Shown here: positions 838 to 25,834 of the stretch, piece by piece
How positions within the stretch are numbered: the first letter of the stretch is position 1
How the letters are laid out: the number at the start of each line of letters is the position of its first letter
Assembly: GCA_045123995.1 (NCBI GenBank)
Contig: JBGVKY010000026.1
Span: 73,600-137,599 of the forward strand
Direction: 5' to 3'
Source of the DNA: Clostridia bacterium
GTDB lineage: Bacteria; Bacillota; Clostridia; CAKSNL01; HGM11501
Length of the DNA: 64,000 nt
Position numbers and translations under genes: made by a program
Notes under the pieces: model-generated
Databases searched by the model: none
What the model was told of the DNA's origin: nothing
Seen by the model: only the letters and a program-made list of their open reading frames with translations

Positions 838-2589
838 ATGTCAAAAAATATGGTAAATTTAAAGATAAACGGAAAAGATATACAAGTTCCCGAAGGATAT
901 ACAATTCTTCAGGCTGCAAGAGAAGCCAAAATTCATATTCCCACACTGTGCTATCTTAAGGACTTAAACGAACTTGGCGCATGCAGAATGTGTGTTGTTG
1001 AGATTAAGGGTGCAAGAGCGCTTCAGGCAGCTTGCGTATACCCTGTTGCAGAGGGAATTGAAGTTTTCACCAATTCTCCTAAGGTAAGAAGTGCAAGAAA
1101 GGCTACACTTGAGCTTATTTTATCAAACCACAATAAAAAGTGTCTTTCTTGCGTAAGAAACGGAAACTGCGAACTTCAGAAGCTTTCTGAAGAACTTGGT
1201 ATTGACAAGGTTCGTTTCGGAACAGAAGAAGAAAATACAAAATATGAATTAGATAATAGCTCACCTTCTTATGTAAGAGACAACAATAAGTGCGTACTTT
1301 GCAGAAGATGTATTGCAGCTTGCGATAATCAGCAGATCAGTGTAATTCAGGCAAAGGAAAGAGGCTTTGCTACTAATATAGGCGGAGCATTTGACCTTCC
1401 TGTTGCAGAAACTCCCTGTATTTACTGCGGTCAGTGTATCGTTGCTTGCCCCACAGGTGCTCTTTCTGAAAAGGACGACACACAGAAGGTTTGGGATGCC
1501 ATTGCAGATCCTGATAAGCACGTTGTATTCCAGACAGCTCCCGCTGTAAGAGCAGCAATCGGCGAAGAATTCGGTATTAAAGCAGGAACTGCAACTACTG
1601 GTAAGATGGTCGCTGCTATAAGAGCTTTAGGTGCCGATAAGGTATTTGATACAGATACAGGTGCCGACCTTACAATCATGGAAGAGGGAACAGAATTTAT
1701 CAACAGATTTACAAAGGGCGAAAATCTTCCATTGATCACATCCTGCAGCCCCGGTTGGGTTAAGTATTGTGAAACATACTATCCCGAATTTATTAAGAAT
1801 CTTTCATCTGCAAAATCTCCCATGGAAATGTTCGGTGCAATTCTTAAGACTTATTATTGCGAGAAGAACAATATAGACCCTGAAAAGATTTTCGTAGTTG
1901 CTGTTATGCCCTGTACATCCAAGAAGTTTGAGGCTTCACGCCCTGAAATGAGCGATGCTGGACACGGTCAGGATATTGACGTATCCATCACAACAAGAGA
2001 ACTTGCAAGAATGATTAAGTCTGCAGGTATCGACTATGTAAATCTTGAAGATGAGCATTTCGACCAGCCCTTCGGTGATGCAACAGGCGCAGGCGTTATC
2101 TTCGGTGCAACAGGCGGTGTTATGGAAGCTGCTCTTCGTACAGTAAGCGAAGTTCTTACAGGCAAGAGTCTGGAGAACATTGACTTTAAGGCTGTAAGAG
2201 GAACGAAGGGTGTTAAGACTGCTAAGCTTACAATCGCAGGCAAGGAAGTAAGCATTGCGGTTGCTCATGGTGTTGCAAACATCAATAAGGTTTTGGAAGA
2301 CGTTAAGTCAGGAAAAGCTCATTACGATTTCATCGAAATGATGGCTTGCCCCGGCGGTTGCGTATGCGGTGGTGGACAGCCCATTCACAGCGCAGAATAT
2401 CTTATGGACCATGACCTTAAGGCACTTCGTGCAAAGGCTCTCTACTCTGAAGATACACATTCTGAGCTCAGAAAATCTCACGAAAATCCCTCAATCAAGT
2501 TGCTTTATAAGGAGTTCCTTGGTGAACCTTGCGGACATAAGGCTCACGAACTTCTCCATACAAAGTATCAGGAAAGAGCAAAATATTGA
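838..2589 (+). CDS. hydA: [FeFe]-hydrogenase catalytic subunit (HydA/HndD type) with an N-terminal 2Fe-2S ferredoxin domain, 4Fe-4S domains and an H-cluster domain
   Basis: RBS GGGAGGGG lies before the ATG. The N-terminus is 2Fe-2S plant-type. CxxCxxCxxxCP motifs are present. The H-cluster signature is visible in TSCSPGW, MPCTSKK and MACPGGCVCGGGQP. Confidence 0.9.
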   Translation: MSKNMVNLKINGKDIQVPEGYTILQAAREAKIHIPTLCYLKDLNELGACRMCVVEIKGARALQAACVYPVAEGIEVFTNSPKVRSARKATLELILSNHNKKCLSCVRNGNCELQKLSEELGIDKVRFGTEEENTKYELDNSSPSYVRDNNKCVLCRRCIAACDNQQISVIQAKERGFATNIGGAFDLPVAETPCIYCGQCIVACPTGALSEKDDTQKVWDAIADPDKHVVFQTAPAVRAAIGEEFGIKAGTATTGKMVAAIRALGADKVFDTDTGADLTIMEEGTEFINRFTKGENLPLITSCSPGWVKYCETYYPEFIKNLSSAKSPMEMFGAILKTYYCEKNNIDPEKIFVVAVMPCTSKKFEASRPEMSDAGHGQDIDVSITTRELARMIKSAGIDYVNLEDEHFDQPFGDATGAGVIFGATGGVMEAALRTVSEVLTGKSLENIDFKAVRGTKGVKTAKLTIAGKEVSIAVAHGVANINKVLEDVKSGKAHYDFIEMMACPGGCVCGGGQPIHSAEYLMDHDLKALRAKALYSEDTHSELRKSHENPSIKLLYKEFLGEPCGHKAHELLHTKYQERAKY

Positions 2590-2595
2590 TAAAGA

Positions 2596-2624
2596 AAATC
2601 TCCGCTTCGGCGGAGATTTTTTTG
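2596..2624 (+). terminator. Rho-independent terminator of the hydrogenase operon
   Basis: Hairpin ATCTCCGC-TTCG-GCGGAGAT followed by a T7 run. Confidence 0.8.
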
Positions 2625-2633
2625 TTAAGGAGG

Positions 2634-2880
2634 ATTTTCGTGAAAATTTTCTTTAAGCAATGCATGGGGATAATGAGAGTGCGAGCCGAAAAAATGCTGT
2701 TCGCATTTTTCAAAGTATCGCCCTTACCTTTGAACGGGAGGGGCAATTTTCGTAAAAATTTTCTTTAAGCAATGCATGGGGATAATGAGAGTGCGAGCCA
2801 AAAAAATGCTGTTCGCATTTTTCAAAGTATCGTCCTTACCCTTGAACGGGACGGGCGATTTTCGTAAAAATTTTCTTTGT
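2634..2880. repeat. Tandem direct repeat, 112-bp unit, about 2.2 copies (2634-2745, 2746-2857, partial third copy 2858-2878)
   Basis: Copies 1 and 2 are near-identical (about 5 mismatches). Each unit contains TTGAAC-N17-TAAAAT-like and GCGAGC...GTTCGC plus T-run elements. Confidence 0.9.
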
Positions 2881-2893
2881 TGAAAATTTTTAC

Positions 2894-2933
2894 TTGACAA
2901 ACTGTACTAACTGTATTACAATAAATAATACAG
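2894..2933 (+). promoter_or_regulatory. Sigma-A promoter with consensus -35 TTGACA (2894-2899), 17-bp spacer and -10 TACAAT (2917-2922). It is overlapped by an operator-like inverted repeat CTGTATTA-N7-TAATACAG (2911-2933) and direct half-site repeats ACTGTAcTA/ACTGTAtTA (2901-2918)
   Basis: Read directly from the sequence. The element sits immediately upstream of the GntR-family gene, as expected for an autoregulated YtrA-type operon. Confidence 0.7.
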
Positions 2934-2947
2934 ATGGAGGTGATAAA

Positions 2948-3322
2948 GTGATAAAGTTGGATTACAGAGACAGTCGGGCATTATATGAGCAGGTTAAAGA
3001 AGAAATGAAAAAGCTTATAATCAAAGGGGTGGTAAAAACAGATGAAAAAATCCCGTCAGTAAGAGAATTGGCATGCACTCTGTCCATAAATCCCAACACC
3101 ATTCAGCGGGCATACAGAGAGCTTGAACAGGAGGGATACATCTATTCACTTCGAGCTAAAGGGTTTTTCGTATCGCCCGTAAGCGAAGAAAATACTAAAG
3201 ATAAAGTAAATAAGCTTGAAACAGAGCTTAAAAAAATAGCAAAAGAGCTTTTGTACTTAAACATTGACAAAAAAGAAATACAAGGTATTTTAGATGAATT
3301 ATATAGCGAAAAGGAGGAATGA
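2948..3322 (+). CDS. GntR-family transcriptional regulator, YtrA subfamily (short C-terminal domain)
   Basis: GTG start at 2948 lies 7 nt after RBS GGAGG (2936-2940). The N-terminus VIKLDYRDSRALYEQVKEEM is the classic GntR wHTH start. The protein is about 124 aa. The ORF-track start at 2894 is a TTG inside the promoter -35. Confidence 0.8.
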   Translation: MIKLDYRDSRALYEQVKEEMKKLIIKGVVKTDEKIPSVRELACTLSINPNTIQRAYRELEQEGYIYSLRAKGFFVSPVSEENTKDKVNKLETELKKIAKELLYLNIDKKEIQGILDELYSEKEE

Positions 3323-4224
3323 AAAGAATGATTAAAGCAAGCGGAATAATAAAAAAATTCGGTGATTTTACTGCCCTTTCGGGACTTGATCTTAACGCTA
3401 AAAAAGGCTCAGTTTACGGCCTTGTGGGTCCTAACGGTGCAGGAAAAACCACTTTCATAAAATGTCTTTTGGGCATTTATAAAGAAGACGAAGGAAATAT
3501 AGAAGTAGAAGGCTCGCCCGTGGCAGAAAACGATATAAAACAGAAAATAGTGTACATAGGAGATGATTTATATTTCTTTCACGGCTACTCCATAAAGGAT
3601 TTAGCTAAATATTATTCGGGAATTTATAAAAATTTTAGTTGGGAAGAATACGAAAGATTAAAGTCGGTATTTGGTATTGACGAGAAAAGAAAAATAAAAC
3701 GCTTATCTAAAGGTATGCAAAAACAGGTTATGTTCTGGATTGGAATTGCCTGCAGGGGAGAGCTGCTTGTTTTAGACGAGCCCGTTGACGGACTTGACCC
3801 TGTTATGAGAAAAGCCATGTGGGGCATTGTTTTATCTAAAGTAGCAGAAGATAATTTAACGGTATTGGTATCCAGCCACAATCTCCGTGAGCTTGAAGAT
3901 GTGTGCGACCATGTGGGAATCATGCATGAAGGAAAGGTTGTTATAGAAAAGTCATTAGATGATGTAAAGGGAAATATACATAAAATTCAGGTGGCCTTTG
4001 AAAACGAATTTCCCAAAGAAGTTAAACAAGAACTTAATATACTTAATGAAAATAAATTAGGCAGCGTAAATCTTTTGATTGTAAAGGATACGGAAAGCCG
4101 GATAAGAGAAGTTATGGGAAAATACAATCCTTTAATAATGGATATTTTGCCCCTTACCCTTGAAGAAGTATTTATCTATGAGTTAGGAGGAATGGGATAT
4201 GTTGTCAAAAATGTCTTATCTTAA
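3319..4224 (+). CDS. ABC transporter ATP-binding protein
   Basis: Walker A GPNGAGKTT, the LSKGMQKQ signature and Walker B LVLDEPVDGLD are present. The start overlaps the GntR stop (ATGA). Confidence 0.85.
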   Translation: MKRMIKASGIIKKFGDFTALSGLDLNAKKGSVYGLVGPNGAGKTTFIKCLLGIYKEDEGNIEVEGSPVAENDIKQKIVYIGDDLYFFHGYSIKDLAKYYSGIYKNFSWEEYERLKSVFGIDEKRKIKRLSKGMQKQVMFWIGIACRGELLVLDEPVDGLDPVMRKAMWGIVLSKVAEDNLTVLVSSHNLRELEDVCDHVGIMHEGKVVIEKSLDDVKGNIHKIQVAFENEFPKEVKQELNILNENKLGSVNLLIVKDTESRIREVMGKYNPLIMDILPLTLEEVFIYELGGMGYVVKNVLS

Positions 4225-6238
4225 TAAAAGCATTATAAAATCCGACCTTAAGCGTTTTTGGTATCTTGCGGTATTAAATACCCTCGTAACTTTCTTTTCA
4301 GGCACGTTTTTGGTTATGGACAGATTTTTATACGGAAGGCAAAATCCCCAAAGATTAACAAATCTTCCCGGTGATTTTTACTTCGCCATGATTTTTGGTA
4401 TGATCTTTGCCCTCCTAACCACCGTGGCAGTATTTTCCTACTTAAATAAATCAAATCAGGCAGCATTCTGCCACGCTTTTCCTATAAAGAGAAAATGTCA
4501 CTATCTTTCGCATCTTACATCTGTTGTCATACTGATATCGGCATCGGGGATATTAAACTCTTTGGCATTATTCTTTTATACGTTAAATCATAATGTGGCA
4601 AAAAGCTTTACTCCTGACATAGCAATCAAGTTTTTTGTTGTTTACATGACCTATTCTCTTTTAGTAATGTCACTTACCGCATTTACCCAGATGCTTACGG
4701 GACTTTCTAGTGCCTGCGTAGTATTAACAGCATGCTTTGTGGCAATACCTTTTGCCTTTGAAACTTTCATAAAAAGCTTTTTACAAACCCATGTATACGG
4801 CTATTTCGGAGAAAGCGAATATCTTACGGGAAAAATATTTTATCTTTCCTTTGAGAAGATTTTATCGGTAAGAATTTTAATATATTTAGCCCTGATTTTA
4901 GTATTTCTCCTTTTAGGCTATATACTTTATAAATTCAGAAAAATTGAATGCAACGGAGAAGTGGTAGCTTACATAAAAATGAGACCTGTATTTATATATA
5001 CCGTTGCTCTATTTACCGGCATGGCAAGCTATGCATATTTCGGCGGCTTTTATGGGGCGAACATCTTTTTTATGCTGCCTTTTGGTATACTCGGTATAAT
5101 TATTGCTTATATGCTCTCGAGAAAGAGCTTTAATTTAATAGGAGTACATAAACCTCTCATTATCTATACACTTTTTGTAATAGCGGTATTTTTGGTGGTT
5201 AAGCTTGATTTATCGGGATTTGAACGAAGAATGCCTGATATAGAAAACATTTCATCTGTTGAATTTCCGTCTATGAGTCACTATGATAAAGCAGGTTTTT
5301 ATCCTGAGGAAAAACGAACGGATTATGCTATTGAATACTTTTTATGTGACGATGTTTTTGACGGAAAATTCACCGAGTATGAAGATATAGAAAACATCTT
5401 AAAGCTTCATTCCTATAAAATAGAAATCAGAGATAAAAATCAGGGTCCTTCCTTAAGAATAAAATATAATCTTAAAAACGGAAAAACTATGGAAAGACGC
5501 TATAATATAGATGTATATCAAGACAAAGAATATCTTGAAGATATATATAACAGTCAAAAAATGAGAGGTATTCTTTTCGAACTGGCAAACGGAACGAAAA
5601 AAGAACTTGTGGGTCTAGAAGTTTTTGATGACAGATTAAACTATGCTTTTGCATATTATCAGGGCGCAGGAAACTTAGAAGCGGAAAAAATAAAAGATGC
5701 TCTGATAAAGGATTTACTTGAAACTCCTTATGATGAATTGCCCGAAATATACCATCACGAGGGACTTTTCCCCACTAGCATAACCATGTCATTAAAGGTT
5801 GACGGTCACTATCAGAATGAAGAATTTGAAGAAACTACGGCTACAAAACGTTTAAGCTATACAATTTATCCTACTTATAAAAACACCTGGAAAGTTCTTG
5901 AAGAATTGAATCTTACATCAAAGCTTCCGACATCTGACGATGTGCTTGAAATCGGCGTTAACATAAATGATTTCAATACCTCCTGGGATAACAAAGTAGT
6001 AACCTATGAGGAAAGCGCTTATATTGAAGACTATAAGTATATGTATAAGATAACAGATAAAGAGACAATAAAAGAAATATACGAGTGGGCTTTATCCGAC
6101 AAGGTTATATATCCCGAATTTGCCGAGGGGCACAAGAATGTGGATTTATATATAGTATTCAAGAACGGATACTTTTTAAATCATTCTTTCATATTTGACG
6201 AAACCATCTGGCCCGAACCCTTAAAAAATCTTAATTAG
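4199..6238 (+). CDS. Integral membrane protein (ABC-2-type permease-like N-terminal about 330 aa with multiple TM helices, plus about 340-aa C-terminal soluble domain)
   Basis: Hydrophobic segments run through residue about 330, followed by a charged, aromatic-rich domain. The start overlaps the ATPase gene, so translation is coupled. Confidence 0.6.
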   Translation: MLSKMSYLNKSIIKSDLKRFWYLAVLNTLVTFFSGTFLVMDRFLYGRQNPQRLTNLPGDFYFAMIFGMIFALLTTVAVFSYLNKSNQAAFCHAFPIKRKCHYLSHLTSVVILISASGILNSLALFFYTLNHNVAKSFTPDIAIKFFVVYMTYSLLVMSLTAFTQMLTGLSSACVVLTACFVAIPFAFETFIKSFLQTHVYGYFGESEYLTGKIFYLSFEKILSVRILIYLALILVFLLLGYILYKFRKIECNGEVVAYIKMRPVFIYTVALFTGMASYAYFGGFYGANIFFMLPFGILGIIIAYMLSRKSFNLIGVHKPLIIYTLFVIAVFLVVKLDLSGFERRMPDIENISSVEFPSMSHYDKAGFYPEEKRTDYAIEYFLCDDVFDGKFTEYEDIENILKLHSYKIEIRDKNQGPSLRIKYNLKNGKTMERRYNIDVYQDKEYLEDIYNSQKMRGILFELANGTKKELVGLEVFDDRLNYAFAYYQGAGNLEAEKIKDALIKDLLETPYDELPEIYHHEGLFPTSITMSLKVDGHYQNEEFEETTATKRLSYTIYPTYKNTWKVLEELNLTSKLPTSDDVLEIGVNINDFNTSWDNKVVTYEESAYIEDYKYMYKITDKETIKEIYEWALSDKVIYPEFAEGHKNVDLYIVFKNGYFLNHSFIFDETIWPEPLKNLN

Positions 6239-11772: not shown

Positions 11773-12297
11773 ATGCCTAATTTCAGAAAAGCAGAAGATA
11801 AGGATATAGATGAAGTAGTAAAGATTTACGAAGAAATACATACTTTAGAAGAACAAGGAATTACAAGTGTGGGATGGATTAGAGGTGTGTATCCCACTTA
11901 CGATACTGCTAATAATGCTTTTGGACGCGGAGATTTGTTTGTTGCGGAAAATGAAGGAAAAATAATAGGCTCTGCAATTATAAATAAAATACAGATGGAT
12001 TCCTATAAAGAAGGAAAATGGCACTACGAAGCACCAGAAGACGAAGTTATGGTGCTTCACACTCTTGTTATTTCTCAGAAAGAAGCAAAAAAAGGATACG
12101 GAATGGAATTTGTGAAGTTTTATGAAGAATATGCTTTGTCACACGGCTGTAAACATTTAAGAATGGATACAAACGAGAAGAATCAAAGAGCAAGAACTTT
12201 GTATAAAAAACTGGGATATAACGAAATAGGCATAGTGGATTGTGTATTTAATGGGATAAAGGGTGTTGGCTTGGTTTTACTTGAGAAAAAACTTTAA
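11773..12297 (+). CDS. GNAT-family N-acetyltransferase
   Basis: Size and acetyl-CoA-binding-type motifs are present. RBS GGAGGA. Confidence 0.7.
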   Translation: MPNFRKAEDKDIDEVVKIYEEIHTLEEQGITSVGWIRGVYPTYDTANNAFGRGDLFVAENEGKIIGSAIINKIQMDSYKEGKWHYEAPEDEVMVLHTLVISQKEAKKGYGMEFVKFYEEYALSHGCKHLRMDTNEKNQRARTLYKKLGYNEIGIVDCVFNGIKGVGLVLLEKKL

Positions 12298-12325
12298 TAC
12301 TTTTGAAGGCTGAAAGGAGTCGGAT

Positions 12326-13093
12326 ATGTCTGAGTTTTTATTTTTGGGAACAGGAGCAGCAGACTGGGATATTTCTGACAAAAAGAATTTTGTAAGAAGG
12401 CATTCTGCAGCTTTGGTAAATTATAATCTTATGATAGATTGTGGAAGACATATATTTGATTTTGAAGAGAGTTTTGGAAAAGAAAATCTCTATGATAACA
12501 TCAAAGATGTAATTATAACACATCCTCATGGAGATCATGTTTCTAAAGATTCAATACTTAAGCTGTCGAAAAAAAGAAAGTTTAATTTGTGGTGCGACAG
12601 AAAAATTGCAGAACTCGTGGGAAAGCATCCTAATATTGAAATCCATATATTAAATGCGTTCAAAGAAGAAAAAATCGGCGAATATAAAGTAATTCCCCTT
12701 ATGGCGAACCACAGCGTTGTGACCAATGAAAATTCGACAGCTTTTCACTACATAATAGAAACTTATGATGGGAAAAAGATTTTTTACGGACTTGACGGAG
12801 CTTGGTTTTTAAGACCATCGTGGGAGGAAATGAAGAAACATAAGTTTGACATCATGGTATTCGACTGCACAGTGGGAGAGGGGGAGGACTGGAGACTTTT
12901 TGAGCATAACACCATCCCTATGCTGAGGCTTATGACAAATGAGATAAAAAGACAGAATATGTTGTCGGAAAATGGTAAACTTATAGCTTCTCATATGGCA
13001 AAAAGCTTACACGGCACTCATGAAGAAACCGAAAGTATACTCGGGGAGTTTGATATGACAGCGGCTTACGACGGGCTATTACTTTCGTTTTAA
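12326..13093 (+). CDS. MBL-fold metallo-hydrolase
   Basis: HxHxDH motif ITHPHGDHV. RBS GAAAGGAG. Confidence 0.8.
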   Translation: MSEFLFLGTGAADWDISDKKNFVRRHSAALVNYNLMIDCGRHIFDFEESFGKENLYDNIKDVIITHPHGDHVSKDSILKLSKKRKFNLWCDRKIAELVGKHPNIEIHILNAFKEEKIGEYKVIPLMANHSVVTNENSTAFHYIIETYDGKKIFYGLDGAWFLRPSWEEMKKHKFDIMVFDCTVGEGEDWRLFEHNTIPMLRLMTNEIKRQNMLSENGKLIASHMAKSLHGTHEETESILGEFDMTAAYDGLLLSF

Positions 13094-13097
13094 CTAA

Positions 13098-14165
13098 TTA
13101 AATCTTTTTTAATCGGTAAAGAAAAGACGCTAGAGCGATTGTTAATCCGGATAATGTTTTTTTGACAGAAACGTTATCGCCGTTAACCGGTTCACCCTCT
13201 CCTAAATATTTTTGGAAAATATTCATGATTCCTAAAGTTGCGTGTTGTCTTAGAGTAGGAGGTAGACTCATAATCTCGTCAGAAACCGATTCTATATAAC
13301 CGGAAAGTATCCCTTGTTTGCATAAAGGTCTTAAATTACCTTTATCATCAAGAATCGCCTCTATATTGTGAAGCCCACGGAATGATTCGAAGTAGTACGT
13401 GTTTTCAAAAGGGACAAGTCTTTTTCCCAATGCATTTACATAATCATTGCAAGCAGAAAAACCGAAAACTTTATATCGTCGTTTTTCGTAGTCGATGTTT
13501 AGGTTTTCTTTGAATGAATCGAGCGCTTCAGGAGAAAACCCTTGCCCGTTAAAAGAAAAGCACAATTTTATTATATCGGAATTCATGGTGATGAATTGCG
13601 CTTTGTTTCCGCCCTTCGAGTGACCTGAAACTGTGATTTTAGAATATATGCCCCAGGAATTTTCTGAAGCTTTTTTGTTAAACCAGTTTAATGCTTCGGT
13701 TTGTTGATCGGTAGCGTAGTCGTTTTTAAGAGTAATGAAATTTTCGGCCTTGCCGTCTTTAGCATAGGTTATGTAAGTATTTTCTTCCGGAATCCCTGAC
13801 AAACCTTCGCCGTTATCGATCCATTCACCGTCTCCGGTCCCTTTGAAAACCACGGAAATAGTATTGTCAGGATTATCGAAACAACAGGCAGTAAGTCCGC
13901 TTTTTGAATAAGTGAAGTTTATAAGCTTTGAATCTGATAGAAATTCGTTATCAGAAACAGCATTTTTTATGATGTTTAATCTTTGTATGTCCCGCTTTTT
14001 CCACGGGACAGTTTTTTCGTTTAAATAGGCGTTTTCCAAATCTGATACTATGGTCTTCAAAGTTTTATTTTCTTTTGGGAGGCTCTTATCAGCTAAATAC
14101 AAATAAGTATTTAATATCGCTTCGTTATTAGCTTTCTTAATCAATTCAAGGGGAATTTTATTCAT
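13098..14165 (-). CDS. Alpha/beta-hydrolase, lipase-like (DUF2974/Mbeg1-like)
   Basis: GHSKGG nucleophile-elbow motif. Start chosen at MNKIPLELIKK (ATG 14165). The upstream extension to 14312 in the ORF track is unlikely. Confidence 0.55.
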   Translation of the reverse strand: MNKIPLELIKKANNEAILNTYLYLADKSLPKENKTLKTIVSDLENAYLNEKTVPWKKRDIQRLNIIKNAVSDNEFLSDSKLINFTYSKSGLTACCFDNPDNTISVVFKGTGDGEWIDNGEGLSGIPEENTYITYAKDGKAENFITLKNDYATDQQTEALNWFNKKASENSWGIYSKITVSGHSKGGNKAQFITMNSDIIKLCFSFNGQGFSPEALDSFKENLNIDYEKRRYKVFGFSACNDYVNALGKRLVPFENTYYFESFRGLHNIEAILDDKGNLRPLCKQGILSGYIESVSDEIMSLPPTLRQHATLGIMNIFQKYLGEGEPVNGDNVSVKKTLSGLTIALASFLYRLKKI

Positions 14166-14341
14166 AAAAAGAGACCTTTCTTTTATCTTTATTCTCTTAT
14201 ATGAAGCATTCTGTATTACAATTACAGTAAATACGGAATATTTGGAGTTAAAATTAAAAGTGTTTGATAATTTTCGGCATGTTCTTTTGTTTTTGGGAAT
14301 ATATTGAACCATACGATGAATTTGTATGGGAGGAAATATAT

Positions 14342-14602
14342 GTGAAATGTTATATAGAAGAACGGGCGGTCGAGCTTGCTAAGTATATTATTGATAATAA
14401 ATGCACGGTAAGGACTACGGCGAAACACTTCGGCATTTCTAAATCTACTGTACATAAAGATGTTACGGAACGGCTTAAGAAAGTTAAACCTGCTTTGGCA
14501 AAGGAGGTATACGAAATATTAAAGGAAAACAAAGAAGAAAGGCACATAAGGGGAGGACTTGCTACAAAAAAGAAATATTTCGAAAAACGTATAGGAAAAT
14601 AA
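14342..14602 (+). CDS. spoIIID: Stage III sporulation protein D (SpoIIID), a small HTH mother-cell transcription factor
   Basis: GTG start 8 nt after GGGAGG (14328-14333). Sequence VKCYIEERAVELAKYIIDNKCTVRTTAKHFGISKSTVHKDVTERL closely matches the SpoIIID HTH region. Confidence 0.85.
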   Translation: MKCYIEERAVELAKYIIDNKCTVRTTAKHFGISKSTVHKDVTERLKKVKPALAKEVYEILKENKEERHIRGGLATKKKYFEKRIGK

Positions 14603-14654
14603 AAAATAGTATTGTTATAATTGGAAAAATGTGATATACTTCTACTGGTGATGT

Positions 14655-15779
14655 TTGGTGAAGAAAAAAAGCTTTAAGTATTTTGTAAATAACTTTGACT
14701 GGTATATATTTATTGCGGCAGTTTTGTCCAGTGTTTTTGGAATTATGCTTATTTACAGTGCAGGCATAGCAGGAGGGACAAACGTACGAGACCTTTTGGT
14801 TCAGAGCGTTGCTCTTTTGCTGGGAATCGGCGTGATGGCATTGGTTTGCTATATCGATTATGACATTTTCGAGGTTTTGGGCTGGGCGATAGGCGGAGTC
14901 GGAGTCGCTGTTTTGATTGTCGTGCTTGTAATCGGAACCGGCGGAGAAGAAGTTGGAACAAAGGGCTGGATTGATTTGGGACCGGTCAGCGTACAACCCT
15001 CGGAATTTGCTAAAATTGCTTTTATTATTTCGATGGCTATGCACATTTCCAAGGTTGAGGAAAAGATAAATGAGCCTAAGAATTTATTCTTTTTAATACT
15101 TCATTTCAGTGTATATGCTGCATTGGTGTTGTTTCAGCCGGACTATGGAACCACTATGGTTTTCGGATTCACTTTTATTGGAATGCTCTTTATGGCGGGG
15201 GTGAGAATAAAATACTTTCTCATGGCGATATCTGCAGCTTTGGTTGCAGCTATTCCTGTATGGACGTTTGTCTTAAGCGATTTCCAGAGAGCCAGAATAC
15301 TGACGTTCTTGAATCCTGAAAATTCGCCTTTGGATGATGGATATCAGGTACTTCAATCCATGCTCGCTATTGGTTCCGGCCAAATAACCGGAAACGGATA
15401 CATGAAAGGAAATCAGACGCAGATGGGCTATCTTCCGCAGGCGAGAACAGACTTTATTTTTTCAGTAGCAGGGGAAGAGTTTGGATTTATAGGTTGTCTT
15501 TTAATACTGGCACTCTTGCTTTTTATAATTATAAGATGCTTTATAAATGCTTCAAAAGCCAAAGATACATTTGGAAGACTCCTTTGTATAGGGGTGGGAT
15601 GCTTTCTTTTGTTCCACACAATGGAAAATATCGGCATGTGCTTGAATCTTTTGCCGGTAACCGGAATACCGCTTCCATTTTTCAGTTCGGGAGGCTCAAA
15701 TCTCTTAGCTTCATACATGGCGATAGGTCTTGTGCTTAATGTCGGATTGAGACATAAGGTTTATGGACTTTGGATGTAA
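14655..15779 (+). CDS. SEDS-family protein (FtsW/RodA/SpoVE)
   Basis: 10-TM SEDS architecture with conserved C-terminal PVTGIPLPFFSSGGSNLLA. Confidence 0.85.
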   Translation: MVKKKSFKYFVNNFDWYIFIAAVLSSVFGIMLIYSAGIAGGTNVRDLLVQSVALLLGIGVMALVCYIDYDIFEVLGWAIGGVGVAVLIVVLVIGTGGEEVGTKGWIDLGPVSVQPSEFAKIAFIISMAMHISKVEEKINEPKNLFFLILHFSVYAALVLFQPDYGTTMVFGFTFIGMLFMAGVRIKYFLMAISAALVAAIPVWTFVLSDFQRARILTFLNPENSPLDDGYQVLQSMLAIGSGQITGNGYMKGNQTQMGYLPQARTDFIFSVAGEEFGFIGCLLILALLLFIIIRCFINASKAKDTFGRLLCIGVGCFLLFHTMENIGMCLNLLPVTGIPLPFFSSGGSNLLASYMAIGLVLNVGLRHKVYGLWM

Positions 15780-15812
15780 AAAACCGTTTGCTTTGCAAAC
15801 GGTTTTTTTATA
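15780..15812 (+). terminator. Rho-independent terminator
   Basis: AAACCGTTTGC-TTTG-CAAACGGTTT followed by T7. Confidence 0.85.
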
Positions 15813-15864
15813 AAATTGCCCTAAGACAGGAAGCAGGAAATATTTATACTATGCAATTATACTA

Positions 15865-15893
15865 TTGAAAAAAATGTATTTTTATGGTATACT
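15865..15893 (+). promoter_or_regulatory. Sigma-A-like promoter TTGAAA-N17-TATACT
   Basis: Read from sequence upstream of the MATE gene. Confidence 0.5.
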
Positions 15894-15904
15894 GATACAC
15901 TGAG

Positions 15905-17287
15905 GTGAGATTTTTGCTTAAAAAACTTTTTGCTCCGACAGATATGACAGTCGGCACTCCGTGGAAGAGCATACTTATATTTACTCTTCCTATGATTATA
16001 GGTAATATTGCTCAGCAACTTTATAATACTGTTGACAGTATTGTTGTGGGAAGATATGTTGGAGATAATGCCTTTGGTGCAGTAGGTAGTGCAGGCCCCC
16101 TGCTTAATTTGCTTTTAGTTCTCTTTATGGGAGTATCCACCGGTGCGGGAGTTATGACTGCCCAGTATTTCGGAGCCAAGAACAGAGAAAAACTTTCTTA
16201 TACAGTTGGAAATGCTATTACACTTACGGCTATATGCAGTGTTCTGCTCATAATAATTGCCGCGCCTATTCTTGGGTGGATGCTCGGAGTATTAAAGGTT
16301 AAACCGGAACATTTTAAGTGGTGTTATGACTATCTTATGATTTCCATTATCGGTATTGCGGGAATGGGATATTATAACATATTGAGCGGTATTATAAGAG
16401 GTATGGGGGATTCTGTATCTGCGCTTATTTATCTTTTGGTTGCAACAGTTACCAATATTGTTTTAGATATTTTGTTTGTGGCAAATTTAGGAATGGAAGT
16501 CGGGGGAGTTGCTCTTGCAACGGTAATTTCTCAGTTATTTTCTTCGGTTTTGTGTATTGTTAAGCTCAGCAAAATGAAAGAGAACTTTGATTTCGGATTG
16601 AAATACCTCAAACCAAAGAAAGAATATATGATGAAGATAATAACCCTTGGAGTGCCCTCGGGACTTACCCAGGCTATATTCTCTTCTGCTATGCTCATTG
16701 TACAGGGGCTTACAAACAGTTTTACAACGACATTTGTAAATGCAAACATAATAATTATGCGAGTTGACGGTTTTGCAATGATGCCTAATTTCTCCTTTGG
16801 AATGGCGCTTACTACATATGCAGGACAGAATGTTGGAGCGAAGCTTTATGACAGAGTAACAAAAGGAGCAAAACAGGGAACCTTAATGGCTTTTGGATGC
16901 TCTGCTATAATTACGGGAATCATTCTTCTTTTCGGTAAAAATCTCATGGGTGTATTCACCCAAACAAAAGAACTCATAGATTTAAGCTATCATCTTATGA
17001 CGATTTTAGCTCCCGGTTATCTTGCTATGGCAATAACCCAGAGCTTGTCGGGAATTATGCGCGGTGCAGGAGATACAATGACTCCCATGTGGATTTCTCT
17101 TATGACAACCGTTGCCATAAGAGTGCCGCTTGCGTACGGAATTTCAGAACTTACAAAAACTCCGGAGTTACCTTTCGGAAGGCACGAGTGCATCCAACTT
17201 TCACTTCTGGCTTCCTGGGTTATTGGAGCTATACTTACAGCTATTTTCTATTCAAGAGGAAAGTGGAAGAATAAAGCCGTAAACTGA
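15905..17287 (+). CDS. MATE-family efflux transporter
   Basis: 12-TM architecture with typical MATE N-terminus ILIFTLPMIIGNIAQQLYNTVDSIVVG. The start is ambiguous (GTG 15905 or ATG 15941). Confidence 0.85.
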   Translation: MRFLLKKLFAPTDMTVGTPWKSILIFTLPMIIGNIAQQLYNTVDSIVVGRYVGDNAFGAVGSAGPLLNLLLVLFMGVSTGAGVMTAQYFGAKNREKLSYTVGNAITLTAICSVLLIIIAAPILGWMLGVLKVKPEHFKWCYDYLMISIIGIAGMGYYNILSGIIRGMGDSVSALIYLLVATVTNIVLDILFVANLGMEVGGVALATVISQLFSSVLCIVKLSKMKENFDFGLKYLKPKKEYMMKIITLGVPSGLTQAIFSSAMLIVQGLTNSFTTTFVNANIIIMRVDGFAMMPNFSFGMALTTYAGQNVGAKLYDRVTKGAKQGTLMAFGCSAIITGIILLFGKNLMGVFTQTKELIDLSYHLMTILAPGYLAMAITQSLSGIMRGAGDTMTPMWISLMTTVAIRVPLAYGISELTKTPELPFGRHECIQLSLLASWVIGAILTAIFYSRGKWKNKAVN

Positions 17288-17290
17288 ATC

Positions 17291-17319
17291 TTCAAAACGT
17301 ATAAAATCTATGATATACT
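17291..17319 (+). promoter_or_regulatory. Sigma-A-like promoter TTCAAA-N17-TATACT
   Basis: Read from sequence. Followed by a structured leader (see findings). Confidence 0.45.
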
Positions 17320-17468
17320 GAGTTTGCAAGACAAACTCAATGAATTGCCTTACGGCATGAGCGGAACGCCAATTTATGACAACGAAGTTGTCAATTCATT
17401 AAAATTGGGAACATCTAAATCGTATAAAAATTCTAGAATAGTTTAAACCATTAAAAAGGAGAAATTTT

Positions 17469-18413
17469 ATGTCAGATAGCTTTTTGGGTACCTTGTCACC
17501 TTTACTTATGTTGTTTTTTTGCATTTTGTTCGGATATATTCTAAACAAGCTTAAAATTATGCCGGAGTCCACTACAACGGTACTTTCAAAATGTGAAAAG
17601 TATCTGTTTATGCCGGCTTTAGGATATTCAACTTTTTCTAAATATTGCACGGTTAAAAGTATTTATGAAAATGCAAATGTTGTTTTATATTCTCTGATAG
17701 CAATAGCAATAGCCTTAGTAATAGCTATTCCTCTTTCAAGATGTTTTGAAAAAGACGATATAAATAAAAGAAATATTTATAAGTATGCATTGGTTTTTGC
17801 AAATCATGGCTTTATGGGTAATGCCATAGTTCCCCTTGTTTTAGGAGGACAGAGTCATTTATATACATATCTTTTGTTTACGTTGCCTCTTAATTTTTTA
17901 ACTTATGCATGGGGAGTTGTGATTCTTACACCGAAAGAATTGCGCTCAGGCAATGTGTTTAAAAATCTGCTTAATGCACCAATGATAGGAATGCTTGCCG
18001 GGATGGTTATAGGTCTTACAGGCACACAACAATATATACCCCAGTTTGTAAATACTACTGCCGAAACTCTTCAAGGTTGTATGGGTCCTGTTGCAATGAT
18101 ACTTACAGGTTTTGTTATTGGTAATTATGAATTTAAGGGCTTAATCTCGAATGCAAAAGTTTATATAGCAACTTTTTTAAGATTGATACTTCTTCCGACT
18201 GTAATTTTGACAGTTCTGCTATTACTTGGTGCAAGTAAATATACTATTGCACTTGCATTGTTTGCATATGCAACACCGCTTGGTTTAAATACAGTTGTTT
18301 TCCCGGCGGTTTATGGGGGAGATACGCAAACAGGTGCAAGTATGGCTATGATAAGCCACGTCTTATGTGTTATAACAATACCTGTAATGTATGGCTTGCT
18401 AACTCTGATTTAA
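17469..18413 (+). CDS. AEC-family (auxin efflux carrier / malate permease-like) membrane transporter
   Basis: Two 5-TM halves at AEC length. RBS AAAGGAGA. Confidence 0.75.
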   Translation: MSDSFLGTLSPLLMLFFCILFGYILNKLKIMPESTTTVLSKCEKYLFMPALGYSTFSKYCTVKSIYENANVVLYSLIAIAIALVIAIPLSRCFEKDDINKRNIYKYALVFANHGFMGNAIVPLVLGGQSHLYTYLLFTLPLNFLTYAWGVVILTPKELRSGNVFKNLLNAPMIGMLAGMVIGLTGTQQYIPQFVNTTAETLQGCMGPVAMILTGFVIGNYEFKGLISNAKVYIATFLRLILLPTVILTVLLLLGASKYTIALALFAYATPLGLNTVVFPAVYGGDTQTGASMAMISHVLCVITIPVMYGLLTLI

Positions 18414-18569
18414 TTTATTTTGCATATTCATAAAGGAAAACGAAATGAAAAAATGTTATAATGATTTCAAGCGGTGATTGCATATCGACAAAATAAGTGG
18501 CATCTAAATCATTCACTGATTCTATAATAAAAAAATAATTTATTTTTCGGCAAATAAAGGAGAATGACC

Positions 18570-19526
18570 ATGGATTATACTAAAGTTACCATATACACTA
18601 ACTCAGAAGGTGTGGATTTAATAGCAGCGATGCTTTATGATCTCGATATTACAGGTATTCAGATAATGGACAAGACCGATTTTGAAGAATTTATGAAACA
18701 AAATCTCAGAGCATGGGACGTGGTTGACGAAGAATTTATGAGTTCTATGATGTCGCAGGAAACCACAGTCACATTCTATCTTGAAAATAATGCAGAAAAA
18801 GAAAGCATAATATCTATCATAAAGGATAAGCTTGTAAAGATGCCTGCAGGTGAATGCGGGAGACTAAAAGTTGAAGAGTCTTTAGTTAAAGACGAAGACT
18901 GGGCAAATAACTGGAAGAAATATTATAAGCCTTTAAGAATAGGAGAACATATAATAATAAAACCCACCTGGGAAGAAGTGAAGCCTGAAGAAAAGGATGT
19001 TATTGTGGAGTTAGACCCCGGAATGGCATTCGGAACAGGAAGTCATGCCAGCACAAATATGTGCCTTGAATTTTTAGAAAAGGTTATAAAAAAAGGTGAC
19101 AGAGTTCTGGATATTGGTACCGGAAGCGGAATACTCGGAATTGCTGCTTTGAAATTGGGAGCACAAAGCGTTACTGCCGTAGACATAGATCCTCTTGCGG
19201 TGAAAATAGCAAAGGAAAATGCGGCACTTAACGGCTTTTCAGAGCCTGAATTTACTGTTTTCGAAGGAGATTTGGCAGATAAGGTAAAAGGAGAATATGA
19301 CGTTGTAATAGCTAATATCGTAGCTGATATTATTTGCGAACTCTCAAAAACAGTCGGAAATTACATAAAAAAAGACGGGATTTTTATAACCTCCGGAATT
19401 ATTGATTTTAAAGCAGATAAAGTAAGAAATGCCCTTAAAGAAAATGGCATCAAAATTAAAGGAGAAAAATTAAGCAAGGACTGGAATGCTTTTATGTGCT
19501 GCAGAAAGGAAGATGACAATGAATAG
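18570..19526 (+). CDS. prmA: Ribosomal protein L11 methyltransferase
   Basis: DPGMAFGTGSHASTNMCLEFLE and VLDIGTGSGILGIAA motifs. ATG 18570 has better RBS spacing than 18564. Confidence 0.9.
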   Translation: MDYTKVTIYTNSEGVDLIAAMLYDLDITGIQIMDKTDFEEFMKQNLRAWDVVDEEFMSSMMSQETTVTFYLENNAEKESIISIIKDKLVKMPAGECGRLKVEESLVKDEDWANNWKKYYKPLRIGEHIIIKPTWEEVKPEEKDVIVELDPGMAFGTGSHASTNMCLEFLEKVIKKGDRVLDIGTGSGILGIAALKLGAQSVTAVDIDPLAVKIAKENAALNGFSEPEFTVFEGDLADKVKGEYDVVIANIVADIICELSKTVGNYIKKDGIFITSGIIDFKADKVRNALKENGIKIKGEKLSKDWNAFMCCRKEDDNE

Positions 19527-20856
19527 CTTAAATAAAGATTTTTACGAAAAATTAAAAGGTATTTACACAATACACCCTGAAACATATGAAAAATACGATG
19601 TTAAAAGAGGACTCAGAAACAAAGATGGCACAGGTGTTTTGGTAGGGCTTACTTCCATAGGTGATGTAAGAGGATACATCATTGAAGAAAAGGATAAAAT
19701 AAATGTCCCCGGAAAGCTTACATATCGCGGAATAAATATGGTTGACATTGTTAAAGAAAACGAAAAAAGAGGACAACACGCTTTTGAAGAAACTGTATAT
19801 CTTATTTTAATGGGCGAACTTCCTACAAAAGATGAACTTAAGGAATTTAAGGAAATTTTGGCAAAGAAAAGAGAACTTCCCAGGGGATTTACCGAAGATA
19901 TGATTCTTAAAGCTCCCAGCCCCAACATAATGAATAAGCTGGCAAGAGCAGTTTTAGCATCTTATTCCTATGACGAAAATCCTGACAGCACAAGCATTGA
20001 AAATCTGGTAAGACAATCTATTGAGCTTATTTCCAGATTCCCCTCAATGGTTTCTTACGGATACCAGGCAAAAAAGCATTATTATGATGGAGACAGCTTA
20101 TTTTTACACAGTCCTTTGCCGGAATATGACACTGCACAGAATTTTCTTCATATGATAAGAAAGGATAATAAATTCACAGAACTGGAAGCAAGCGTATTGG
20201 ATCTTCTTTTAGTTATACATGCGGAACACGGCGGTGGTAACAACTCAAGCTTTGCAACTCATGTTGTATCTTCCAGCGGAACAGATACGTACAGCGCAAT
20301 AGCTGCGGCTGTAGGATCTTTAAAAGGACCAAGACACGGCGGTGCAAACGCAAAAGTTATAGGAATGATAGATGAAATAAAAGCCTGCTGCAACTGGAAA
20401 GACGAAGGGGCTCTTAAAGACTATCTTGTAAAAATAGTAAATAAAGAGGCTTACGATAAAAGCGGACTTGTGTACGGTATGGGACACGCTATATATACAT
20501 TAAGTGACCCGAGAGCTGAGCTTCTTAAAGAAAAAGCGGAACATATGGCAGCAGAAACCGGCAGAGAAAAGGAATTTGAGCTTTATAAGAGAATTGAGGC
20601 CTTGACTCCAGGAATTTTCAATGAAATCAAAGGAAATAAAAAGCACTTGTGTGCCAATGTTGATTTGTATTCCGGTTTTGTATACAGCATGCTTGGTATT
20701 CCAGAGGAGCTTTACACTCCCTTGTTTGCAATAGCAAGAGTTCCCAGCTGGTGTGCTCACAGAATGGAAGAAATTGTGGCAGGCGGAAAAATTATTCGTC
20801 CCGCGTATAAGAGCGTCAGCATCAAGAGAAGCTATACTCCTATAGAAGAAAGATAA
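19516..20856 (+). CDS. Citrate synthase (Si-type, GltA family)
   Basis: HAEHGGG...SS and GPRHGGAN motifs and catalytic His/Asp region. RBS GAAAGGAAG. Overlaps the prmA 3' end by 11 nt. Confidence 0.85.
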   Translation, partial: TMNSLNKDFYEKLKGIYTIHPETYEKYDVKRGLRNKDGTGVLVGLTSIGDVRGYIIEEKDKINVPGKLTYRGINMVDIVKENEKRGQHAFEETVYLILMGELPTKDELKEFKEILAKKRELPRGFTEDMILKAPSPNIMNKLARAVLASYSYDENPDSTSIENLVRQSIELISRFPSMVSYGYQAKKHYYDGDSLFLHSPLPEYDTAQNFLHMIRKDNKFTELEASVLDLLLVIHAEHGGGNNSSFATHVVSSSGTDTYSAIAAAVGSLKGPRHGGANAKVIGMIDEIKACCNWKDEGALKDYLVKIVNKEAYDKSGLVYGMGHAIYTLSDPRAELLKEKAEHMAAETGREKEFELYKRIEALTPGIFNEIKGNKKHLCANVDLYSGFVYSMLGIPEELYTPLFAIARVPSWCAHRMEEIVAGGKIIRPAYKSVSIKRSYTPIEER

Positions 20857-20861
20857 AGCTT

Positions 20862-20890
20862 AAAGGTGTGCAGAGAGCACACCTTTAATA
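20862..20890 (+). terminator. Probable terminator
   Basis: AAAGGTGTGC-AGAGA-GCACACCTTT followed by AATAAAA (weak T tail). Confidence 0.5.
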
Positions 20891-20906
20891 AAAGGAAGTG
20901 AAAAAA

Positions 20907-22553: not shown

Positions 22554-22572
22554 GAAAAAAGCGCAAAAAATA

Positions 22573-22601
22573 TTGACCTTCGACAATTTTTGTGGTATAA
22601 T
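22573..22601 (+). promoter_or_regulatory. Strong sigma-A promoter TTGACC-N17-TATAAT with an extended TG
   Basis: Read from sequence upstream of the ATPase-korDABC cluster. Confidence 0.65.
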
Positions 22602-22631
22602 CTAATAATTAAATTAAAGGGGAGAGGTCTG

Positions 22632-23252: not shown

Positions 23253-23278
23253 TGTCAATAAAGAAAGGAATGATACAT

Positions 23279-23485: not shown

Positions 23486-23490
23486 CAAAA

Positions 23491-25831: not shown

Positions 25832-25834
25832 GAA

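What the first reader, a model, noticed from the sequence alone, without database searches (positions are those of the whole stretch)
2634..2880. 112-bp tandem repeat array with a promoter-like junction and terminator-like hairpin in each unit, between the hydrogenase operon and a GntR operon
There are two near-identical full copies and one truncated copy. At each unit junction TTGAAC, a 17-bp spacer and TAAAAT/TGAAAAT form a sigma-A-like promoter. About 40 nt downstream, each unit has GCGAGC-N12-GTTCGC followed by ATTTTT, which could act as a weak intrinsic terminator. The array could therefore encode tandem sRNAs of about 55-60 nt. Alternatively it could be a recently duplicated regulatory region. 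Tandem duplication of a promoter unit is unusual in a compact genome and is not explained by the flanking genes.
Basis: seen in the sequence. Interest (0 to 1): 0.6.

Follow-up and report, generated by a model that had tools for sequence, protein, structure and literature searches.

The report
Variable tandem repeat in an intergenic spacer
The 112-bp tandem repeat is real, but it is best read as a locus-specific, strain-variable duplication of a shortened non-coding element rather than a pair of small-RNA genes, so it is a fairly ordinary feature.

Summary
The array is real: 2634-2878, period 112, 2.2 copies, 106/112 identical, and the only sizeable tandem repeat in 64 kb. It lies between the hydA terminator and the strong promoter of a GntR/ABC operon. 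The sequence is TTGAAC-17-TAAAAA(T), an 8/12 match, and such matches are commoner elsewhere in the window than in the array. The TTGAAC box sits in a hairpin loop, is TTTAAC in a relative, and is missing in front of the first or only unit. No Rfam family, coding signal or dispersed copies were found. Four related assemblies show four states of the same spacer: no unit, one 165-bp unit, one long plus one short unit, and (here) two short units. The window's units are 53-nt internal-deletion forms of the 165-bp element. Every array is bounded by a 21-bp direct repeat. Units are more conserved than nearby 4-fold sites (91-95% against 76.5%), but the locus is a recombination mosaic, so this is not decisive. 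Best reading: a minisatellite-type locus that changes by unequal exchange, whose units carry + strand terminator-like hairpins. A clade-specific structured RNA remains possible for the long form. Interest is low to moderate.

The parts
2594..2626 (+). Intrinsic terminator of the hydrogenase operon: a 12-bp stem with a UUCG loop, then U7. It is symmetric, so it could act on both strands. It lies outside the array and forms its upstream boundary.
   Evidence: dG -17.0 kcal/mol. All weak Rfam hits in the region are driven by this hairpin. The same hairpin is present in L002, L003 and L004.
2634..2745 (+). Unit 1 of the array (short, 112-bp form)
   Evidence: It differs from unit 2 at unit positions 9, 55, 88, 96, 107 and 112.
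2746..2857 (+). Unit 2 of the array (short, 112-bp form)
   Evidence: It is 104/112 identical to the short unit of L004.
2858..2878 (+). Partial third unit. This is the 21-bp direct repeat ATTTTCGTAAAAATTTTCTTT that also starts units 1 and 2 and bounds every allele of the array.
   Evidence: In L002 and L003 the same 21-mer flanks a single 165-bp-period unit.
2675..2710 (+). It has 12 pairs, 5 of them G-U, so the outer part forms only on the + strand. The GC core is followed by UUUUUC.
   Evidence: dG -13.4 kcal/mol (GC core alone -8.2). Pairs form in 92% of cells on the + strand against 68% on the - strand across 6 copies, with no compensatory change.
2787..2822 (+). Hairpin 1 of unit 2
   Evidence: dG -12.3 kcal/mol (GC core -7.1).
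2695..2696 (+). Site of the 53-nt deletion in unit 1, between ...AAAAAAT and GCTG... The long form in relatives has GTCTCACGACCTTTCGCCGACTTAAGCTCCCTTCGGGAGCATCGCTGGCTGGG here. The equivalent site in unit 2 is 2807/2808.
   Evidence: Alignment A1. Unit period is 165 in L002 and L003 against 112 here.
2718..2746 (+). It is terminator-like on the + strand only.
   Evidence: dG -12.9 kcal/mol. It is folded the same way in the unit and whole-spacer folds. The scan misses it because the stem is interrupted.
2830..2858 (+). Hairpin 2 of unit 2, followed by UUUUCGU
   Evidence: dG -11.9 kcal/mol here and -14.6 in L002. Pairs form in 97% of cells on both strands.
2864..2893 (.). A+T-rich inverted repeat GTAAAAATTTTC-6-GAAAATTTTTAC directly upstream of the GntR -35 box. 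Its left arm is part of the 21-bp direct repeat, so each unit carries one copy of that arm.
   Evidence: The 12-mer occurs 4 times in or next to the array; the other 3 hits in 64 kb each carry one mismatch and match the chance level. L005 has a perfect palindrome at the same place.
2894..2922 (+). Promoter of the GntR/ABC operon (TTGACA-17-TACAAT). It is not part of the array and forms its downstream boundary.
   Evidence: 11/12 match and the only strong promoter call in 2400-3100. It is conserved in all relatives down to 65% GntR identity.

Best explanation
The array is a locus-specific minisatellite, that is, a variable-number tandem repeat. It is built from a clade-specific non-coding element that sits between the hydrogenase terminator and the GntR promoter. 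The full element has a 165-bp period and is bounded by a 21-bp direct repeat (ATTTTCGTAAAAATTTTCTTT). The window carries two copies of a derivative that has lost 53 internal bases. Copy number and unit composition change by unequal homologous exchange or slipped misalignment between the direct repeats and between units, and alleles also move between strains by homologous recombination. The units are not independent genes: they have no promoter above background on either strand. Each unit does carry two + strand hairpins followed by U-runs. Hairpin 2 is the stronger (dG -12 to -15 kcal/mol, then UUUUCGU). The most likely effect, if there is one, is that the array acts as a stack of back-up intrinsic terminators, shielding the tightly controlled GntR/ABC promoter from read-through out of the hydrogenase operon. 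Shown: the anatomy, the alleles, the absence of promoters, of known families and of dispersed copies, and the conservation figures. Inferred: the exchange mechanism, and any terminator or insulator activity.
For: Four states of one spacer occur in close relatives. L005 (GntR 80%) has a 132-bp spacer with no unit. L002 and L003 (99%) have one long unit. L004 (87%) has one long unit lacking its 5' part, one short unit, and about 400 bp of other sequence. The window and L001 have two short units. The same 21-bp direct repeat bounds every allele. The unit is absent elsewhere in the window and in all fetched loci. In 185,579 species-representative genomes it occurs only at this same locus in the L004 MAG. 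JGI metagenomes, IMG/VR, phages and plasmids have no match. Both L004 units share CGTTG and TTTAAC where all units of the window's species have CAAAG and TTGAAC, which means the units are homogenised within a genome. The flanking genes are recombination mosaics. No site in the array reaches a 9/12 promoter match on either strand in any allele, and 8/12 is below the window average. There is no Rfam family, no conserved ORF and no Pfam hit. Hairpins with U-runs are present on the + strand in every copy.
Against: Between the window or L002 and L004, the units are 91-95% identical, against 76.5% at 4-fold degenerate sites in the adjacent 450 nt of hydA plus gntR (Fisher p = 0.004 to 8e-5). The 53-nt insert is 100% identical in three assemblies. 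This argues for some sequence-level constraint that a purely neutral repeat would not have, and a terminator stack would constrain mainly the stems. The hydA terminator is already strong, and relatives manage with it alone. Neither unit hairpin passes the terminator scan. No transcript data exist.
Confidence: 0.5

Rival explanations
1. The 165-nt long element is, or recently was, a functional structured RNA read from the + strand. It would have a three-way junction closed by the GAGAGUGCGA/UUCGCAUUUUU stem, an inner hairpin capped by a C(UUCG)G tetraloop, and then hairpin 2 plus a U-run as its terminator. It could be a 3'-UTR-derived or read-through RNA of the hydrogenase operon, or an sRNA with a non-sigma-A promoter. 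The window's two short units would then be truncated paralogues that have lost the junction.
For: Conservation exceeds that of adjacent 4-fold sites, and the 53-nt insert is invariant. The outer stem pairs through G-U on the + strand only, and in L004 two of these become A-U. The UUCG tetraloop is on the + strand. Substitutions tend to fall in loops and linkers (14 unpaired against 9 paired).
Against: Folding is not better than shuffled sequence (z = -0.6 to -0.8 on the + strand). No pair shows a compensatory double change, and some single changes break pairs. The excess of loop and linker substitutions is not significant (9 in 44 paired positions against 14 in 48 unpaired). No promoter lies upstream in the single-unit alleles, where only about 20 nt follow a strong terminator. 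Rfam has no match. The element is absent from the 80% relative and beyond. A 300-nt block of 99-100% identity inside hydA shows that recent recombination alone can produce this level of identity.
Confidence: 0.2
2. The array works at the DNA level. Each unit brings one more copy of the A+T-rich half-site GTAAAAATTTTC, which forms an inverted repeat directly upstream of the GntR -35 box. The array would then be a set of extra binding sites for a regulator, or a run of curved, UP-element-like DNA that tunes the GntR/ABC promoter.
For: The 12-mer occurs 4 times in or next to the array and otherwise only at chance level. An A+T-rich palindrome occupies the same position relative to the -35 box in L005, which has no units. 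The 21-bp repeat is the most invariant part of the unit across all alleles.
Against: Only the left arm is repeated, so the extra copies are half-sites. They lie 112-254 bp from the promoter, and the 112-bp and 165-bp spacings are not whole numbers of helical turns. The motif is low-complexity A/T sequence in a 37% G+C genome. This reading does not explain conservation of the other roughly 90-145 nt of the unit.
Confidence: 0.12
3. One reading: each junction is a sigma-A promoter and hairpin 1 is a terminator, so the array encodes two tandem sibling sRNAs of about 55-60 nt.
For: The geometry is self-consistent: TTGAAC, a 17-18 nt spacer, an A/T-rich hexamer, then a hairpin with a U-run about 40 nt downstream. 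Sibling sRNAs encoded in tandem are a known arrangement (PrrF1/2, OmrA/B, AbcR1/2; PMC4211561).
Against: The match is 8/12, which is background level, and no scan calls it. With a 17-nt spacer the hexamer lacks the final T. The -35 box is in a hairpin loop and reads TTTAAC in L004. The first or only unit has no such promoter upstream. The GC core of the proposed terminator is weak (dG -7 to -8 kcal/mol), and in the long form its 'loop' is a 65-nt insert.
Confidence: 0.08
4. The second copy is an assembly artefact.
For: Short-read assemblies do mishandle tandem repeats, and the Logan contig from SRR25030063 breaks inside the array.
Against: The two units differ at 6 positions, so they are distinct sequences and not a collapsed or duplicated read path. 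L001 carries the unit-2-specific T of CGTCC and matches the window 100% over 5,520 nt. L004, an independent MAG, also has two units in tandem.
Confidence: 0.02

Closest known systems
Bacterial minisatellites / VNTR loci (for example the MIRU loci of Mycobacterium tuberculosis; PMC3635867)
   Same: Head-to-tail repeats with units of tens to about a hundred bp in an intergenic spacer between co-directional genes. Copy number and unit composition differ between close strains. Change is by unequal exchange or slippage. There is no product of its own.
   Different: MIRUs are a dispersed family present at many loci, whereas this unit exists at one locus only. The unit here is long (112 or 165 bp), occurs as only 1-2 copies, and is more conserved across lineages than nearby synonymous sites.
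Tandemly encoded sibling sRNAs (PrrF1/PrrF2, OmrA/OmrB, AbcR1/AbcR2; review PMC4211561)
   Same: Two about 95% identical non-coding units sit head to tail in an intergenic region next to a regulator gene, and each has a hairpin plus a U-run.
   Different: Those genes were found through, or shown to have, their own regulated promoters and Rho-independent terminators, and their transcripts have been observed. Here no promoter rises above background and no transcript evidence exists.
Tandem (back-up) intrinsic terminators between co-directional operons (my own knowledge; no paper was read on this)
   Same: Several hairpin plus U-run elements in series downstream of a highly expressed operon and upstream of the next promoter, all on the coding strand.
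   Different: The unit hairpins have interrupted stems or weak GC cores and short, broken U-runs. None passes the consensus scan. Termination was not measured.

Membership tests
Tandem sibling sRNA genes | Each copy has its own promoter | tested here: not met
   The best match in any allele on either strand is 8/12. The array has 6 such sites against a window mean of 8.7 per 266 nt. The -35 box is not conserved (TTTAAC in L004) and is absent upstream of the first or only unit.
Tandem sibling sRNA genes | Each copy ends in a Rho-independent terminator | tested here: inconclusive
   Hairpin 1 has a GC core of dG -7 to -8 kcal/mol followed by U5. Hairpin 2 has dG -12 to -15 kcal/mol followed by UUUUCGU. 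Neither passes the consensus scan.
Tandem sibling sRNA genes | Discrete transcripts are detected | not testable with these tools
   No expression data are available for this uncultured Clostridia lineage.
Bacterial VNTR / minisatellite locus | Head-to-tail repeats of a unit longer than about 10 bp with no spacers | tested here: met
   Period 112, 2.2 copies, 95% matches, contiguous.
Bacterial VNTR / minisatellite locus | Copy number or unit composition varies between related strains at the same locus | tested here: met
   0, 1 or 2 units, in long and short forms, at the same hydA-gntR spacer in L005, L002/L003, L004 and the window.
MIRU-like, REP or MITE-type dispersed repeat family | The same unit occurs at many loci in a genome | tested here: not met
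   There is no other copy in the 64-kb window or the fetched loci. The L004 MAG holds it only at this locus. The unit has no terminal inverted repeats.
Any curated RNA family (Rfam 15) | A covariance-model match at or near the gathering score | tested here: not met
   Window 2400-3100, L002 4700-5000 and L004 4230-5000 were searched at E<=1-10. Only hits driven by the hydA terminator appeared. The whole window at the gathering threshold gave 0 hits.
Structured RNA under selection (new family) | Compensatory base-pair changes, and folding better than shuffled sequence | tested here: inconclusive
   There are only 6 near-identical copies and 0 pairs with a change on both sides. Fold z-scores are -0.6 to -1.8. 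Conservation exceeds 4-fold sites, but the locus is a recombination mosaic.
Protein-coding gene or pseudogene | A conserved reading frame with a ribosome-binding site, or similarity to a protein family | tested here: not met
   The 53-nt indel shifts every frame. The GTG start in the window is GTA in L002 and L003. Five ORF translations gave no Pfam hit at E<=1.

The most novel reading that the evidence does not exclude
The 165-nt long form found in relatives would be a previously undescribed, clade-restricted structured RNA. It would have a three-way junction with a UUCG-capped arm followed by its own intrinsic terminator, and would be kept under purifying selection downstream of the electron-bifurcating hydrogenase operon. 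The window's array would preserve two truncated paralogues of it that retain the closing stem and the terminator.
Probability: 0.15. Interest if true: 0.45.

Novelty: new member of a known kind. Interest (0 to 1): 0.22.

Why it matters
The practical value is mostly negative. This is not a tandem sRNA locus and should not be annotated as one. The locus does give a small, clean example of how an intergenic element in an uncultured gut-type Clostridia lineage changes. It shows internal deletion, unequal exchange between 21-bp direct repeats, homogenisation of units within a genome, and allele replacement by recombination. It could also serve as a strain marker for this lineage. If the long form proved to be a transcribed structured RNA, it would add a narrow-range RNA next to a hydrogenase operon, which would be of modest interest.

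Tried and rejected
- **Known RNA family:** rejected. Four Rfam searches gave only terminator-driven hits.
- **Dispersed or mobile repeat:** rejected. There are no other copies in the window or the fetched loci. The one genome hit is at the same locus. Metagenome and viral scans gave nothing, and phage and plasmid blastn gave nothing.
- **Coding region or pseudogene:** rejected. No frame is conserved and there is no Pfam hit.
- **Sigma-A promoter on either strand:** rejected at the level of sequence evidence.
- **Minus-strand RNA:** less likely. The outer pairs of hairpin 1 fail on that strand, there is no U-run after the hairpins on that strand, and there is no promoter.
- **More alleles:** exact look-ups of HydA (583 aa) and my first ABC coordinates (301 aa) found nothing. 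The corrected 298-aa ABC look-up returned only contigs I already had. Relatives at 65-68% GntR identity have different upstream genes and unrelated spacers.
- **Operator-type motifs:** Rex, cre, Spo0A and sporulation-sigma motifs were compared by eye only. None matched convincingly and none is claimed.
- **7,962-bp periodicity of weak repeats elsewhere in the window:** coincidence.
- **Not run:** a second and third large protein search (for example with HydA), because the GntR search had already shown only four clusters at 80% identity or more.

Full report
**1. The observation**

The tandem repeat exists as described. Tandem Repeats Finder gives 2634-2878, period 112, 2.2 copies, 95% matches and score 448. 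The next best array in the 64-kb window scores 61.
- Unit 1 (2634-2745) and unit 2 (2746-2857) differ at six positions. A 21-nt partial third unit follows.
- Upstream is the large subunit of an [FeFe]-hydrogenase operon, ending at 2589. Its terminator is strong: a 12-bp stem with a UUCG loop and U7, dG -17 kcal/mol.
- Downstream is the only strong promoter of the region, TTGACA-17-TACAAT at 2894-2922. It drives a GntR regulator (GTG start at 2948), an ABC ATPase and a large membrane protein.
- A read-level assembly of SRR25030063 (L001) is identical to the window over 5,520 nt. It begins at 2803, at the front of the 32-nt stretch (2802-2833) that is identical in both units, as expected for a repeat-induced contig break.

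One detail was misread. The -10 box is TAAAAAT, not TAAAAT, so the junction motif is TTGAAC-17-TAAAAA or TTGAAC-18-AAAAAT. Either way it is an 8/12 match.

**2. Promoter and terminator claims**

Promoter:
- The consensus scan calls no promoter or terminator inside the array.
- No site on either strand, in any allele, reaches 9/12.
- Matches of 8/12 are background. The array has 6, the window averages 8.7 per 266-nt tile, and 186 of 240 tiles have at least as many.
- The TTGAAC box lies in the loop of a G+C-rich hairpin and reads TTTAAC in the relative L004.
- Nothing comparable precedes the first unit, or the only unit in the single-unit alleles.

Hairpins. Each unit has two + strand hairpins.
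Its GC core is weak (dG -7 to -8 kcal/mol) and is followed by UUUUUC.
It is stronger (dG -12 to -15 kcal/mol) and is followed by UUUUCGU. The scan misses it because the stem is interrupted.

**3. What relatives show**

The GntR protein has only four close clusters in a 5.8-billion-protein database, at 100, 99, 87 and 80% identity. Their contigs give four states of the same hydA-gntR spacer.

| Locus | GntR identity | Spacer | Content |
|---|---|---|---|
| L005 | 80% | 132 bp | Terminator and promoter only; no unit |
| L002, L003 | 99% | 299 bp | One unit of 165-bp period |
| L004 | 87% | 763 bp | One long unit lacking its first ~20-40 nt, one short unit, ~400 bp of unrelated sequence |
| Window, L001 | 100% | 358 bp | Two short units |

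- The long unit carries 53 extra bases exactly where the window's units have the 'loop' of hairpin 1 (alignment A1).
- The window's units are therefore internal-deletion derivatives of a longer element.
- Every allele is bounded by the same 21-bp direct repeat, ATTTTCGTAAAAATTTTCTTT.
- In relatives at 65-68% GntR identity the operon has other neighbours and unrelated spacers. Only the GntR promoter and operator persist.

**4. Not dispersed, not a known family, not coding**

- The unit has no other copy in the window or in any fetched locus.
- A degenerate 26-nt pattern from the part shared by all unit types hits one of 185,579 species-representative genomes. That genome is the L004 MAG ('Clostridia bacterium'), and both hits are at this same locus.
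- JGI metagenomes, IMG/VR, phage records and plasmid records give nothing.
- Rfam gives nothing for the short or the long form, and nothing at the gathering threshold in the whole window.
- No reading frame survives the 53-nt indel. The GTG that opens an ORF in the window is GTA in L002 and L003. Five ORF translations have no Pfam match.

**5. Conservation and its caveat**

- Between the window (or L002) and L004, third-codon-position identity is 81% in hydA, 70% in gntR, 60% in the ABC ATPase gene and 65% in the membrane-protein gene.
- 4-fold sites in the adjacent 450 nt of hydA plus gntR are 76.5% identical.
- The units are 102-104/112 and 115/121 identical. The excess is significant, with Fisher p between 0.004 and 8e-5.
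- The 53-nt insert is invariant in three assemblies.
- This would normally indicate constraint. However, hydA contains a 300-nt block of 99-100% identity flanked by 60-86% at third positions. Between the window and L002 the ABC gene is 100% identical while the membrane-protein gene is only 88.7%. Recent recombination tracts of a few hundred bases clearly occur at this locus and could explain the figures.
- Both L004 units share CGTTG and TTTAAC where all units of the window's species have CAAAG and TTGAAC, while the long/short difference is shared across genomes. That is the signature of units being homogenised within a genome.

**6. Structure evidence**

- Across six copies, hairpin 1 pairs in 92% of cells on the + strand and 68% on the - strand. 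Hairpin 2 pairs in 97% on both.
- No pair changes on both sides. Two G-U pairs become A-U in L004, but one G-C pair becomes A·C and one terminal pair is lost.
- Substitutions fall 9 in 44 paired positions against 14 in 48 unpaired positions, which is not significant.
- Fold energies are unremarkable: z = -0.9 to -1.8 for short units and -0.6 to -0.8 for the long form on the + strand.
- The inner arm of the long form ends in a C(UUCG)G tetraloop on the + strand.
- Overall this favours the + strand if any RNA is made, but it does not establish an RNA.

**7. Most likely explanation (confidence about 0.5)**

This is a minisatellite-type locus, formed and reshaped by unequal exchange or slipped misalignment between the 21-bp direct repeats and between units, and by allele replacement through recombination.
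- Its units are shortened copies of a clade-specific non-coding element and are not separate genes.
- Because every unit carries + strand hairpins followed by U-runs, the likeliest effect is additional termination between a highly expressed hydrogenase operon and an autoregulated GntR/ABC promoter.
- The anatomy, the alleles and the negative searches are shown. The exchange mechanism and the terminator effect are inferred.

**8. Rival explanations**

- **Long form is or was a structured + strand RNA, with the window holding truncated paralogues (0.2).** This fits the conservation and the strand-specific pairs. It lacks a promoter, covariation and fold support.
- **DNA-level module (0.12).** Each unit adds one copy of GTAAAAATTTTC, the left arm of an A+T-rich inverted repeat that abuts the GntR -35 box. 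This does not explain conservation of the rest of the unit.
It fails the promoter tests above.
- **Assembly artefact (0.02).** The six differences between units, L001 and the independent two-unit array in L004 all argue against it.

**9. Comparison with known systems**

- The locus behaves like a bacterial VNTR or minisatellite. MIRUs, described as minisatellites with copy-number variation (PMC3635867), are the textbook case. It is not a member of a dispersed family, because that feature was tested and not met.
- It resembles tandem sibling sRNAs such as PrrF1/2, OmrA/B and AbcR1/2 (PMC4211561) only in layout. The defining feature of a separate promoter for each copy was tested and not met.
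- I rate it a new member of a known kind. Interest is low to moderate (0.22).

**10. Side observations**

- L004 holds two strong minus-strand promoter matches (TTGACT-17-TATACT with TG) in the sequence that the window lacks.
- One is followed by a 69-nt hairpin plus U5 with z = -5.3. The other is followed by about 216 nt of non-coding sequence with z = -2.7. Neither has an Rfam match.
- These are better sRNA candidates than anything in the window's array. They suggest this spacer is a place where small transcription units are gained and lost.

Noticed in passing
L004:4270-4665 (MAG contig JAZNEB010000020.1; absent from the window): Two minus-strand transcription units, each with a TTGACT-17-TATACT promoter match and an extended -10 TG (4388-4360 and 4643-4615). 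The first is followed by a 69-nt hairpin plus U5 (dG -30.4 kcal/mol, z = -5.3). The second is followed by about 216 nt of non-coding sequence (z = -2.7). Neither has an Rfam match or a plausible ORF. They are unnamed sRNA candidates.
   Followed up: partly
window 838-6238 compared with L004 and L002: The locus is a recombination mosaic. Window against L004: hydA has a 300-nt block of 99-100% identity flanked by 60-86% identity at third codon positions. Window against L002: the ABC ATPase gene is 100% identical but the adjacent membrane-protein gene is only 88.7%.
   Followed up: partly
window 2894-2947: The GntR promoter overlaps repeated ACTGTA motifs and the inverted repeat CTGTATTA-N7-TAATACAG. 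The pattern TTGACAAACTGTnnnAACTGTATTA...TAnTACAG is kept in relatives down to 65% GntR identity that have quite different upstream genes. It is probably the autoregulatory operator.
   Followed up: partly
window 2864-2893; L005:4921-4953: An A+T-rich inverted repeat (GTAAAAATTTTC-6-GAAAATTTTTAC) abuts the GntR -35 box. L005, which has no repeat units, has a perfect 33-bp palindrome (AGTCAAGAAAAATTTTTAAAATTTTTCTTGACT) at the same place. L004 has an extra 13-bp duplication (TTGAAATTTTTAC) there.
   Followed up: partly
window 2627-2768: AAGGAGG, six bases and then GTG open a 42-codon ORF that runs through unit 1. The GTG is GTA in L002 and L003 and the ribosome-binding site is lost in L003, so this is a chance ORF.
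   Followed up: yes
window 11788-30881 (repeat families D2, D6 and D8): Weak 26-37-nt repeats recur at spacings of 7,961-7,962 bp, which looked like a large segmental duplication. The genes involved are unrelated (NFACT/RqcH-like against galactose-1-phosphate uridylyltransferase; an unknown protein against a calcineurin-like phosphoesterase), so it is coincidence.
   Followed up: yes
window 1-64000: There is no Rfam family at the gathering score and no tRNA or tmRNA gene in the whole 64 kb of a 37% G+C Clostridia chromosome segment.
   Followed up: no
window 4199-6238: The 679-aa membrane protein that ends the GntR/ABC operon has no Pfam match here. Its counterparts in relatives carry only DUF6449: a weak hit in L004 and a full hit in the 685-aa homologue of L007. 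It is also the most divergent gene of the operon between near-identical strains.
   Followed up: no
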